Positions 12,001 through 13,792 of a stretch of 13,792 bases of DNA are shown here, piece by piece. How positions within the stretch are numbered: the first letter of the stretch is position 1; every line of letters begins with the position of its first letter. The stretch comes from a virus (lineage: Duplodnaviria > Heunggongvirae > Uroviricota > Caudoviricetes): IMG/VR virus record IMGVR_UViG_2711768009_000005. One strand, given 5' to 3'. The position numbers are program-made.

Positions 12001-13792
12001 GAGCGGCTCTACAAGTTCAGCTGGGGCCCACCAACATAGTCAGACTGGGCCCAGAACGAATAGCGGGAGTCAACCTACTGGAATGTTTCCGGCAGGGAGT
12101 ACTCAAGTTAGCGGGACTAATCAGGTTGGTATCAGTGGCTCATTAACCAGTGGCACCTCCCAATGGGTAGGTAAATCATCTTCAGAAGGAAACCATACAC
12201 ACTCACTGTCCGGCACAGCAGCATCTGCGGGTGCACACGCGCATACTGTCGGTATTGGTGCTCATACGCACTCTGTTGCGATTGGTTCACATGGACACAC
12301 CATCACCGTTAACGCTGCTGGTAACGCGGAAAACACCGTCAAAAACATCGCATTTAACTATATTGTGAGGCTCGCATAATGGCATTCAGAATGAGTGAAC
12401 AAGCACGGACCATAAAAATTTATAACCTGCTGGCCGGAACTAATGAATTTATTGGTGAAGGTGACGCATATATTCCGCCTCATACAGGTCTGCCTGCAAA
12501 CAGTACCGATATTGCACCGCCAGATATTCCGGCTGGTTTCGTGGCTGTTTTCAACAGTGATGAGTCATCGTGGCATCTCGTTGAAGATCATCGGGGTAAA
12601 ACGGTTTATGACGTGGCTTCCGGCGACGCGTTATTTATTTCTGAACTCGGCTCATTACCGGAAAATGTCACCTGGTTATCCCCGGAAGGGGAGTTTCAGA
12701 AGTGGAACGGCACAGCCTGGGTGAAGGATACGGAAGCAGAAAAACTGTTCCGGATCCGGGAGGCGGAAGAAACAAAAAACAGCCTGATGCAGGTAGCCAG
12801 TGAGCATATAGCGCCGCTTCAGGATGCTGTGGATCTGGAGATCGCAACGGAGAAAGAAACCTTGTTGCTGGAAGCTTGGAAAAAGTATCGGGTGTTGCTG
12901 AACCGTGTTGATACATCAACTGCACCGGATATTGAATGGCCAGTAGCACCTATAGGGTAAATTCGTAATGATTACCTAAATACGTTATTCTTTTGTTAAA
13001 AAAGTGATTTTGCTATAGGTAGGGAGTATGTTCTTGGATTAAGAATAAAAAATCGCCATGAAAGAGCTTCATGGCGAGTACATAAACGTACAAAATGTGA
13101 TGAAAGTAGAGTGGCGTAAGCCACTATATTAAGATATGACAATAGCGAAGAAAAGTAAATAACATTTTATGGACGTTTAATTGTTAATTATAAAAACTAG
13201 AGTGCCCGATATTGTTTATCTTGCTTTAAAATAATGTACTCAAACCAAATTTTTGAGCTAAAAGCTCAAATAATATAAATGCAATAATAATGTTTAATAA
13301 GACAATTAGCTTGCTTTGTATTTTCATTTCGGAATACTGTTAAGTAACTTTGATGACCCTAACAATAGATCGGAATTTTCTTAGAGTCAATGGTCACTGT
13401 TTTTGCTTGCAAAGCAAATGTTTTGGTGGTTATAAGTCGTCTTAATATAGTCACGCATGCAACTTGTTCCATGCGGAGATTAAAGATTGGAATATAACGC
13501 GAAGATGGAATTAAATTACATTTGCAATAATTAATTTATTATTACTCAATAATTACCGATATTATTATTGTAAATTAATCATTAGAATGCAAAAAGAAAT
13601 GTAACGGCAAAATAAGAGGACGATAGCTGAGAAAAAAGCGTGCTTTCCCAATCTGGGGCAAATCACGTCTGAATGACACCTGAAAACAGGTGGTAGCCTC
13701 AAGAAGGCTGGTGATGCTGCCAACTTACTGATTTAGTGTATGATGGTGTTTTTGAGGTGCTCCAGTGGCTTCTGTTTCTATCAGCTGTCCCT

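What the first reader, a model, noticed from the sequence alone, without database searches (positions are those of the whole stretch)
12961..13709. Abrupt switch to AT-rich DNA with no long ORF directly after tfa, ending at an IS1 insertion
Composition changes from typical tail-gene GC to very A/T-rich sequence exactly at the tfa stop; 13500-13600 is almost pure A/T. No ORF of 60 codons or more exists on either strand across about 750 bp. This position is the usual accessory or moron hotspot of lambdoid phages, so the segment may be a decayed cargo gene, a regulatory or H-NS-silenced region, or an RNA locus. Two minus-strand frames are open for about 45-56 codons leftward from the IS1 junction, ending near 13575 and 13541 (for example …ATTCFQVSFRRDLPQIGKARFFLSYRPLILPLHFFLHSND), so IS1 may have interrupted a leftward gene whose 5' part lies beyond the element.
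Basis: partly seen in the sequence, partly recalled or inferred. Interest (0 to 1): 0.5.

Follow-up and report, generated by a model that had tools for sequence, protein, structure and literature searches.

The report
Prophage spacer: small gene, fossil attachment site
The "empty" AT-rich DNA after the tail-fibre assembly gene is a patchwork: it holds an unannotated 33-codon membrane-protein gene with its terminator and the start of a dead phage attachment site, and IS1 landed in that dead site, not in a gene.

Summary
GC falls from 48.5% in tfa to 31.5% over 12961-13709, no ORF reaches 60 codons, and IS1 begins at 13710. The segment is a three-part mosaic. (A) 12961-13538 is a module that directly follows tfa in 830 of 5,426 complete E. 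coli genomes, with at least three unrelated right-hand neighbours. It carries an unannotated leftward 33-codon gene (13327..13226) whose substitution pattern is clearly coding. Its product resembles the stress-induced small membrane protein YncL, though below the family's curated cutoff. It also carries a strong leftward intrinsic terminator (13077..13053). (B) 13539-13624 is a 24% GC linker. (C) 13625-13709 is the first 85 bp of the phage-side arm of a fossil attR. In uninterrupted alleles this arm is followed by the 3' part of tRNA gene serU, 275 bp of core E. coli chromosome and a patE-type AraC regulator gene. A viral contig shows the same arm in a live attP-int-xis unit. IS1 sits inside an integrase arm-type site. 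In genomes with the same junction it also deleted the next 550 or ~741 bp. The 55-codon ORF proposed as the interrupted gene has no support. These are all ordinary kinds of feature, but the small gene and the captured host DNA are worth noting.

The parts
12379..12960 (+). tfa (tail fibre assembly gene, 193 aa). It is context only and marks the left boundary of the segment.
   Evidence: ORF. Annotated as tail fiber assembly protein in the matching loci L001, L002 and L003.
12961..13538 (.). Module A: a conserved post-tfa module, 30% GC. It is shared by prophages whose right-hand neighbours are unrelated: Qin-type at ydfJ, sitABCD-carrying, and serU-attR/patE type.
   Evidence: Present in 830 of 5,426 complete E. 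coli genomes (939 copies), with no annotation under the listed hits. Boundaries come from BLAST.
13045..13077 (-). Intrinsic terminator for leftward transcription. The stem-loop UCGCCAUGAA-GCUCU-UUCAUGGCGA lies at 13077..13053 and is followed by UUUUUUAUUCUU.
   Evidence: Found by the terminator scan with an 11-bp stem. Folds at -18.2 kcal/mol with z = -6.0, and 0 of 200 shuffles are as stable. Nearly invariant in all 57 copies.
13044..13134 (-). The most conserved block of module A: the terminator plus two upstream hairpins, including AGUGGCUUACGCCACU. It may be a 3'UTR or sRNA-like element; its function is unknown.
   Evidence: 90-97% identical in the copy that is about 80% identical overall, while the adjacent DNA is 53-67%. 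The 24-codon plus-strand ORF here changes only non-synonymously, so the conservation is not coding. One variant keeps pairing as G.U on the minus strand only. No Rfam family matches.
13226..13327 (-). Unannotated 33-codon gene for a YncL-like small membrane protein, MKIQSKLIVLLNIIIAFILFELLAQKFGLSTLF. ATG at 13327, stop at 13228..13226.
   Evidence: Intact in 56 of 57 copies. Against the 80% copy there are 18 nucleotide differences at codon positions 7/1/10, with 7 synonymous and 5 non-synonymous codons; permutation P = 1e-4. NCBIfam NF000537 (YncL) matches at E = 1.3e-5 and 25 bits, below the 35-bit cutoff. An ungapped 28-residue alignment to K-12 YncL has 11 identities and scores 60, against 20.3 +/- 4.1 for shuffles.
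13362..13390 (-). Putative sigma-70 promoter of the small gene: TTGACT, 17 nt, TATTGT. This is a prediction only.
   Evidence: Consensus scan, where the number of promoter-like sites was no higher than in shuffled sequence. The position is kept in all module A versions.
13539..13624 (.). Very AT-rich linker (24% GC) between module A and the att arm. It is part of the accessory (b) region of the serU-integrating phage type and is also an IS1 target.
   Evidence: Absent from Qin-type and sit-type copies and from the ST131 and O157 arm copies. Contiguous with module A and the arm in L046, L024 and L020. An independent IS1 insertion lies here in L048.
13625..13709 (.). Left 85 bp of the phage-side (P) arm of a fossil serU-type attR, 48% GC. 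The last two bases (CT) are what remains of the arm-type site CTTGGAAT.
   Evidence: In intact alleles the arm continues into the serU 3' part plus 275 bp of chromosome. The same arm occurs at a genuine serU attR in ST131 (L006), at the uspF/ompN site in O157 (L007), and in a live attP-int-xis unit (L046).
13710..13792 (+). IS1 left inverted repeat and the start of insA. The window ends inside the element.
   Evidence: Alignment. The identical junction occurs in 79 complete genomes, annotated as IS1A. In those genomes the far side shows adjacent deletions.

Best explanation
The segment is the accessory (b) region of a lambdoid prophage integrated at the lambda attB site next to ybhB-bioA. It is built from three pieces.

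(1) Module A (12961-13538) is a cassette that travels with tfa. It encodes a leftward 33-residue single-helix membrane protein related to the stress-induced protein YncL. It ends in a strong leftward intrinsic terminator about 85 bp short of tfa, which would stop leftward transcripts (the small gene itself, and cargo operons such as sitABCD in other phages) before they run antisense into the tail genes. By analogy with YncL, the protein probably inserts into the inner membrane and lowers membrane potential when made. That functional step is inferred, not shown.

(2) An AT-rich linker occupies 13539-13624.

(3) 13625-13709 is the start of a fossil attR (P arm, core, host flank). It was left by an ancestor that integrated into the tRNA gene serU and carried away the junction plus 275 bp of host chromosome. 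That host DNA is now fused to a patE-type AraC regulator gene. The resident prophage uses a different, lambda-type integration module, so this site is a relic.

IS1 inserted into the first integrase arm-type binding site of that relic. In sequenced genomes with the same junction, it then deleted the adjacent 550 bp or about 741 bp towards patE.
For: Mosaic structure. Module A follows tfa at 96% identity in Qin-type prophages and at 93% and 80% in sit-type prophages, each with an unrelated right flank.

Small gene. It is intact in 56 of 57 copies, shows codon-position bias of 7/1/10, and has permutation P = 1e-4, while the other small ORFs break up in diverged copies. It matches the YncL HMM at E = 1.3e-5, and its ungapped alignment score lies about 10 SD above shuffles. 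YncL is a membrane-depolarising small protein (PMC12542507).

Terminator. -18.2 kcal/mol, z = -6, and conserved across copies.

Fossil attR. L001 4862-5199 matches serU and its downstream flank in 5,423 of 5,426 E. coli genomes. The alignment with K-12 shows identity starting in the anticodon stem and running 275 bp past the tRNA. ST131 has the same arm at the true serU locus next to zinT.

Live version. L046 has the same arm followed by a serU copy, three tandem CTTGGAAT repeats, a tyrosine integrase (PF00589) and a DUF4224 protein. The fossil carries the host-type variable arm, whereas the attP copy carries a compensated G..C variant, as expected for an attR.

Resident integration. The prophage ends at ybhB-bioA and has its own int and xis.

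IS1. The identical junction is in 79 genomes. The right junction lies at L001 5300 or about 5491. The 5300 junction is in 121 genomes, including the window's five best matches.
Against: No expression data exist for the small gene, and it lacks a recognisable Shine-Dalgarno sequence. Its YncL match is below the curated cutoff (25 bits against 35). Its promoter is only a consensus match, in a scan that found no excess over shuffled sequence.

Sequence diversity is shallow. There are four protein variants and only one deep lineage, so the coding test rests mainly on one comparison, and the patchy conservation of the hairpin block could reflect recombination rather than selection.

The far side of the IS1 in the window's own genome is not in the window, so the deletion is inferred from genomes sharing the junction. 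How the host flank became joined to patE is unresolved.
Confidence: 0.8

Rival explanations
1. IS1 interrupted a real leftward protein-coding gene whose 5' part lies beyond the element.
For: A 55-codon minus-strand ORF spans the insertion point in intact alleles. It is annotated as a hypothetical protein in phage ev099.
Against: It has no family match in Pfam, NCBIfam, PHROGs or PADLOC. The mEp332 version is absent from a 15-billion-protein collection. PGAP does not call it in any listed genome. It straddles a mosaic boundary, has a different C-terminus in ST131 and has no start codon in O157. Its sequence coincides with the att arm, including the arm-type site.
Confidence: 0.04
2. Module A is the decayed remnant of a larger cargo gene, and the 33-codon ORF is a chance survivor.
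For: The DNA is AT-rich and full of short broken ORFs. This position commonly holds morons.
Against: Sensitive blastn against phages finds no diverged relative carrying an intact larger gene. The 33-codon ORF keeps its start, stop and length in the 80% copy, with substitutions concentrated at third positions (P = 1e-4). It matches a known small-protein family.
Confidence: 0.08
3. The main function of the segment is non-coding: an sRNA or 3'UTR-derived regulatory RNA comprising the conserved hairpin block and terminator (13044-13134, minus strand).
For: This block is the best conserved part of module A (90-97% against 53-67% in the flanks). It has three hairpins and a U-tail, typical of sRNA 3' ends. 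One variant is compatible with pairing only on the minus strand.
Against: There is no Rfam match; MicC at E = 1.4 is noise. There are too few variants for covariation. The conservation could be a recombination patch. No separate promoter is evident. This reading is compatible with the best explanation rather than exclusive of it.
Confidence: 0.15
4. The AT-rich DNA is chiefly an H-NS-bound silencing and regulatory region for the downstream patE-type AraC gene, and the IS1 insertion and deletions are selected because they change patE expression.
For: GC is 24-31%. The same IS1 has given nested deletions ending 206 bp and about 15 bp before the patE start. These alleles are common, in 79-121 genomes. 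IS1 is oriented so that it is transcribed towards patE.
Against: There are no binding or expression data. Module A occurs without patE in most genomes, so it is not a dedicated patE leader. The predicted patE promoter lies more than 1.4 kb from module A.
Confidence: 0.25

Closest known systems
YncL (E. coli K-12 b4598), a 31-aa stress-induced small inner-membrane protein; NCBIfam NF000537
   Same: Similar length (33 aa against 31 aa) and a single hydrophobic helix. There is an ungapped 28-residue alignment with 11 identities, including Ser5, Lys/Arg6, Asn12, Leu-Phe 19-20 and [KR]-F-G 26-28.
   Different: The match is below the curated family cutoff (25 bits against 35). There is no DNA-level similarity to the yncL locus. 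The gene is prophage-borne and lies directly after tfa. It has no Shine-Dalgarno sequence, whereas yncL has AAAGGTGG. Its function and regulation are untested.
Lambda attP/attR architecture (P arm with two arm-type sites, core, P' arm with three tandem arm-type sites, then int and xis) and tRNA-gene integration
   Same: The live relative L046 has one direct and one inverted CTTGGAAT in the P arm, three tandem copies in the P' arm, a core equal to the 3' part of a tRNA gene, and leftward int and xis genes next to the P' arm. The window's copy has the P-O-B' order of an attR.
   Different: In the window's prophage type the site is internal and lies about 2.5 kb from the att/int module actually in use. 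No cognate integrase gene was seen in the parts of that prophage examined (the window, L001 and L002). IS1 has truncated the site. Binding of Int to CTTGGAAT is inferred from the repeat pattern, not shown.
Specialised-transduction-type capture of host DNA by imprecise prophage excision (lambda gal/bio)
   Same: Host chromosome that normally abuts the prophage end, namely the serU 3' part plus 275 bp, is carried inside viable phage genomes (mEp332, ev099, PhiR70_1) next to the old attR junction.
   Different: Only 338 bp of host DNA is carried, and it holds no host gene. It is fixed in a widespread phage lineage and is joined to patE and an ISEc48 remnant. The joining event could equally have been IS-mediated or prophage-prophage recombination.
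IS1 insertion with IS1-mediated adjacent deletion
   Same: The left junction is fixed and the right junctions are nested (550 bp and about 741 bp removed), with IS1 retained. The targets are AT-rich or next to AT-rich DNA, and there is a second independent insertion in the AT tract.
   Different: Nothing unusual. A simple-insertion ancestor with a 9-bp duplication was not found among the loci examined.
Type I toxin-antitoxin small hydrophobic toxins (Hok, Ldr, TisB, ZorO and others)
   Same: A small hydrophobic peptide encoded in AT-rich prophage DNA. The related protein YncL depolarises the membrane when overproduced.
   Different: There is no match to any toxin family. No antisense RNA or fold-back leader was identified, and no toxicity data exist.

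Membership tests
YncL small membrane protein family (NCBIfam NF000537) | HMM score at or above the curated equivalog cutoff of 35 bits | tested here: not met
   25.0 bits, E = 1.3e-5, covering model positions 1-28 of 30. The match is significant but below the cutoff, so I call the protein YncL-like rather than YncL.
YncL small membrane protein family (NCBIfam NF000537) | A protein of about 30 aa with one transmembrane helix and similarity to YncL beyond what composition explains | tested here: met
   33 aa. Mean Kyte-Doolittle hydropathy over residues 7-24 is 2.87 (YncL 2.16). The ungapped alignment scores 60 against 20.3 +/- 4.1 for shuffles, and 0 of 5,000 shuffles reach it.
YncL small membrane protein family (NCBIfam NF000537) | Translated, located in the inner membrane and stress-induced | not testable with these tools
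   The only evidence here is the coding-type substitution pattern. The properties of YncL are taken from PMC12542507.
Lambda-type attachment site (attR, P-O-B') | Core identical to the host target (3' part of a tRNA gene), followed by genuine host flank | tested here: met
   In intact alleles the serU 3' part of about 62 nt plus 275 bp matches 5,423 of 5,426 E. coli genomes under the annotated tRNA-Ser. This part lies beyond the IS1 and so is outside the window.
Lambda-type attachment site (attR, P-O-B') | Phage arm with integrase arm-type repeats, shared with a functional attP next to int and xis | tested here: met
   L046 has the same arm, CTTGGAAT once direct and once inverted in P, three tandem copies in P', and then an integrase (PF00589, E = 8e-12) and a DUF4224 protein. 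Protein binding was not tested.
Lambda-type attachment site (attR, P-O-B') | A cognate integrase in the same element, meaning the site is in use | tested here: not met
   This prophage type ends at ybhB-bioA and has a separate int-xis module about 2.5 kb further right. That is why I call the site a fossil.
IS1 | Terminal inverted repeat and insA sequence | tested here: met
   Window 13710-13792 is 99.6-100% identical to elements annotated as IS1A family.
IS1 | A 9-bp target duplication flanking a simple insertion | tested here: not met
   In genomes with the same left junction the right flank is L001 5300 or about 5491, not 4741-4749. These are adjacent deletions. The window's own right flank is not available.
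Rho-independent terminator | A G+C-rich stem-loop directly followed by a U-tract on the transcribed strand | tested here: met
   A stem of 10-11 bp with 5 G-C pairs, followed by UUUUUU; -18.2 kcal/mol, z = -6. Termination in vivo was not tested.
Type I toxin-antitoxin system | A small hydrophobic toxin together with a cis- or trans-encoded antisense RNA | tested here: inconclusive
   A hydrophobic peptide is present. There is no toxin-family or PADLOC match. No antisense RNA was identified, and promoter-like sites are no more frequent than in shuffled sequence.
PatE (prophage-encoded AraC-like regulator, z0321, OI-8); the gene lies beyond the IS1 and outside the window | Identity to the O157:H7 OI-8/Sp1 AraC-type regulator | tested here: met
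   244 of 247 residues identical to Sakai ECs_0287, the only AraC-type gene in Sp1. The assignment of PatE to OI-8 comes from PMC10877973. A direct comparison with z0321 was not possible.

The most novel reading that the evidence does not exclude
The 33-residue YncL-like protein may be a lysogenic-conversion factor that tunes the lysogen's membrane potential, for example driving stress-induced dormancy or excluding superinfecting phage. It is widespread (about 15% of E. coli genomes, up to four copies each) and has so far gone unannotated. The unusually conserved hairpin block downstream of it may be processed into a regulatory RNA.
Probability: 0.15. Interest if true: 0.6.

Novelty: new member of a known kind. 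Interest (0 to 1): 0.4.

Why it matters
There are three modest points.

First, a conserved small membrane-protein gene sits unannotated in about 15% of complete E. coli genomes and in cultured phages. Its chromosomal relative YncL has recently been shown to depolarise the membrane, so the phage copy is a testable candidate for a lysogenic-conversion or phage-defence factor.

Second, viable lambdoid phages carry an old attR junction with 338 bp of host chromosome. This is a clear natural footprint of host-DNA capture, and it places the acid-resistance regulator gene patE next to serU-derived DNA.

Third, the IS1 alleles form a nested deletion series that ends just upstream of patE. Together they provide natural variants for testing how patE is controlled.

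None of this changes current concepts. It mainly corrects the reading of an apparently "empty" spacer.

Tried and rejected
- Rfam at gathering and at permissive thresholds gave nothing real in the segment. The only hits were IS009 inside tfa, noise-level MicC, and tRNA-like signals over the serU fragment.
- ARAGORN found no intact tRNA, as expected for a fragment.
- tblastn of the 33-aa peptide against phages returned nothing, not even the known identical copies. The low-complexity filter masks the peptide, so this result is uninformative.
- The search for homologous proteins refuses queries shorter than 40 aa.
- The exhaustive representative search found only the protein itself and one 43-aa relative.
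- An exact-pattern scan of species-representative genomes gave 0 hits.
- K-12 Qin lacks module A, and its small protein YnfT is unrelated.
- There is no DNA similarity between module A and the K-12 yncL locus.
- Folding the arm region as RNA, to look for a sib/tI-like structure, was not significant (z = -0.66).
- The svsR prophage sRNA paper was a false lead, because "serU" had matched "serum".
- The PatE paper (PMC3416394) is not held.
- PHROGs and PADLOC gave nothing for the small ORFs.
- Covariation analysis of the hairpins was not attempted formally, because there are too few variants.

Full report
**1. The observation**

The window is the tail region of a lambdoid prophage. Its ORFs are J at 5075-8572, lom at 8643-9125, stf at 9218-12379 and tfa at 12379-12960. 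GC is 56% in the tail genes, 48.5% in tfa and 31.5% over 12961-13709. It is 18.8% over 13500-13600. No ORF of 60 codons or more exists on either strand of the segment. The IS1 left inverted repeat begins at 13710. The one correction is that the last 85 bp before IS1 is 48% GC, so it is not AT-rich.

**2. Uninterrupted alleles exist and show what lies beyond the IS1**

The full 749 bp occurs at 98.7% identity or more in 280 complete E. coli genomes and in phages mEp332, PhiR70_1 and ev099. In those records tfa is followed, in order, by:

- about 1.5 kb with no annotation;
- a rightward 247-aa AraC-family gene;
- IS3-family remnants;
- int and xis (in the phage records) or ybhB-bioA, the lambda attB region (in the chromosome).

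**3. The segment is a mosaic**

Coordinates below are for locus L001 (mEp332); window coordinate = L001 coordinate + 8960. BLAST against other contexts splits the spacer as follows.

| Piece | L001 | Window | Shared with |
|---|---|---|---|
| Module A | 4001-4578 | 12961-13538 | Qin-type prophages after tfaQ (96%); sitABCD-carrying prophages (93% and 80%) |
| Linker | 4579-4664 | 13539-13624 | only the serU-type phages |
| Module B | from 4665 | from 13625 | an ST131 prophage beside zinT (to L001 5199); an O157:H7 prophage beside uspF/ompN (to L001 4877) |

Among 57 copies collected from genomes and viral contigs, module A always directly follows tfa. Its right-hand neighbour comes in at least three unrelated forms. 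Module A is present in 830 of 5,426 complete genomes, with 939 copies and none on plasmids. No annotation lies under any of the listed hits.

**4. Module B is a fossil attR**

L001 4862-5199 matches 5,423 of 5,426 E. coli genomes at 96-97%, under the annotated tRNA-Ser gene serU and its downstream flank. Aligned with K-12, identity starts in the serU anticodon stem, runs to the tRNA 3' end and continues for 275 bp towards yodB. The ST131 prophage has the same junction at the real serU locus. The O157 prophage shares only the phage-side arm plus about 17 bp of core-like sequence (GGTCTCGAAACCCGTAG), and then diverges into its own host flank.

Viral contig L046 shows the working version:

- module A, the linker and the same arm, which holds one direct CTTGGAAT and one inverted copy;
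- a phage-borne serU 3' copy with a compensated G..C pair in the variable-arm stem;
- three tandem CTTGGAAT repeats;
- a leftward tyrosine integrase (PF00589) and a DUF4224 protein.

Two arm sites in P and three in P' is the lambda layout. The copy in the window's prophage type carries the host-type variable arm and host flank, so it is an attR (P-O-B') and not an attP. The prophage itself uses a separate integration module at the lambda site, so this attR is a relic. The simplest history is that a serU lysogen of an L046-like phage lost precise excision, or recombined, 275 bp into the host flank. The exact joining event is unresolved.

**5. IS1**

The window's junction falls within CTTGGAAT, the first arm-type site: the window keeps ...GGCT and then IS1 begins. 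The identical junction is in 79 complete genomes. On the far side:

- In L010, IS1 abuts L001 5300. The missing 550 bp comprises the rest of the arm, the serU fragment, the host flank and about 100 bp more. This leaves IS1 206 bp upstream of the AraC gene. This right junction is in 121 genomes, including the window's five best matches.
- In L026, IS1 abuts about L001 5491, some 15 bp before the start codon.
- L048 has an independent IS1 insertion in the AT-rich linker.

The window ends inside IS1, so its own far side is unknown.

**6. The ORF proposed as interrupted**

In intact alleles this ORF is 55 codons. Several things count against it:

- It matches no family in four libraries.
- PGAP does not call it in any listed genome.
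- Its C-terminus differs in the ST131 copy, where the module boundary changes.
- Its start codon is missing in the O157 copy.
- It overlies the att arm.

I find no support for it as a gene.

**7. A real small gene in module A**

The minus-strand ORF 13327..13226 encodes 33 aa: MKIQSKLIVLLNIIIAFILFELLAQKFGLSTLF. It is intact in 56 of 57 copies. The exception is a short contig and was not examined further.

Against the 80% copy it has 18 nucleotide differences, distributed 7/1/10 over codon positions, with 7 synonymous and 5 non-synonymous codons. Placing the same substitutions at random keeps the ORF open with 5 or fewer amino-acid changes in only 1 of 10,000 trials. The 93% copy adds 5 synonymous changes and 1 non-synonymous change. 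All other small ORFs in module A break up in the diverged copies.

The protein matches NCBIfam NF000537 (YncL) at E = 1.3e-5 and 25 bits, below the 35-bit cutoff. It aligns without gaps to K-12 YncL over 28 residues with 11 identities. The score is 60, against 20.3 +/- 4.1 for shuffles. YncL is a stress-induced small inner-membrane protein whose production depolarises the membrane and condenses the nucleoid (PMC12542507).

The phage copy is essentially uncalled in public protein collections. Its weaknesses are the lack of a clear Shine-Dalgarno sequence, a promoter that is only predicted (TTGACT, 17 nt, TATTGT at 13390..13362), and the absence of expression data.

**8. Terminator and conserved block**

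A minus-strand hairpin at 13077..13053, followed by UUUUUU, is a canonical intrinsic terminator: -18.2 kcal/mol, z = -6.0. Together with two upstream hairpins (13044-13134), it is the most conserved part of module A. It is 90-97% identical in the 80% copy, whereas the DNA between it and the small ORF is 53-67%.

The plus-strand 24-codon ORF in this block changes only non-synonymously, so the constraint is not coding. No Rfam family matches. I infer that the terminator ends the small-gene transcript and, in other phages, leftward cargo operons such as sitABCD, before they run antisense into tfa. Whether the block is also an sRNA-like element remains open.

**9. The gene beyond the IS1**

The AraC protein is 244/247 identical to Sakai ECs_0287 in prophage Sp1. 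Sp1 corresponds to OI-8, where the review PMC10877973 places PatE (z0321), an acid-resistance activator. Sakai has the same block of serU fragment, 275-bp flank, patE and ISEc48 remnant, but with a different left arm that starts exactly at the core.

**10. Verdict**

The segment is explained by ordinary processes: mosaic recombination in the prophage accessory region, a relic attachment site with captured host DNA, and IS1 insertion with adjacent deletion. The new items are an unannotated YncL-like small gene that is widespread in E. coli prophages, and the fossil attR that links patE to serU-derived DNA. Interest is moderate to low, and the novelty level is "new member of a known kind".

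Noticed in passing
window 10301-10623: A run of 323 N lies inside the side tail fibre ORF (stf, 9218-12379). This stretch is masked or unassembled, so the 1053-aa stf ORF call is not reliable across it.
   Followed up: no
window 12722-12920 (+): Rfam family IS009 (RF02111) matches at 218 bits, entirely inside the tfa coding sequence. The same hit occurs in mEp332. The 'RNA family' here coincides with a conserved protein-coding 3' end.
   Followed up: no
window 8643-9125: The lom gene is truncated, at 160 aa against 199 aa in related prophages. 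A deletion of about 80 bp removes the C-terminal beta-strands, so it is probably a pseudogene.
   Followed up: partly
L010 6151-7125; L026 (IS1 right end about 15 bp before the patE ATG): Two nested IS1-adjacent deletions share the window's left junction, removing 550 bp and about 741 bp towards the patE-type AraC gene. The second removes the predicted native promoter. The 550-bp right junction is in 121 complete genomes, whereas the left junction is in only 79, so further left-side rearrangements must exist.
   Followed up: partly
L048 (equivalent to window ~13559): An independent IS1 insertion lies in the 24% GC linker, so this tract is a repeated IS1 target.
   Followed up: no
L001 5506-6249; L063 (Sakai) 12457-14296: The AraC gene beyond the IS1 is 98.8% identical to Sakai ECs_0287 (Sp1/OI-8, very probably PatE). 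Sakai carries the same block of serU fragment, 275-bp host flank, patE and ISEc48 remnant, but with a different left arm that begins exactly at the att core. This suggests either two captures from one chromosomal arrangement or an integrase-mediated arm exchange.
   Followed up: partly
L006 6001-6215, L007 6001-6215, L024 ~9851-10060, L046 ~10161-10420: The same phage att arm is used by prophages at serU and by prophages at the uspF/ompN (Rac-type) site. The cores share only GGTCTCGAAA(A/C)CCG(G/T)AG, which points to related integrases with shifted core specificity.
   Followed up: partly
L046 ~10358-10420: The phage-borne copy of the serU 3' part has a compensatory A..T to G..C change in the variable-arm stem. 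This would keep the tRNA functional after integration.
   Followed up: no
window 13427-13516: A second patch of high conservation (83-90% in the 80% copy) lies upstream of the small gene's putative promoter. No feature has been assigned to it.
   Followed up: no
L004/L005 5820-6017 (-): Qin-type prophages have a conserved 65-aa hypothetical protein between module A and the ydfJ attR. It has 185 cluster members and no Pfam or PHROG family.
   Followed up: no
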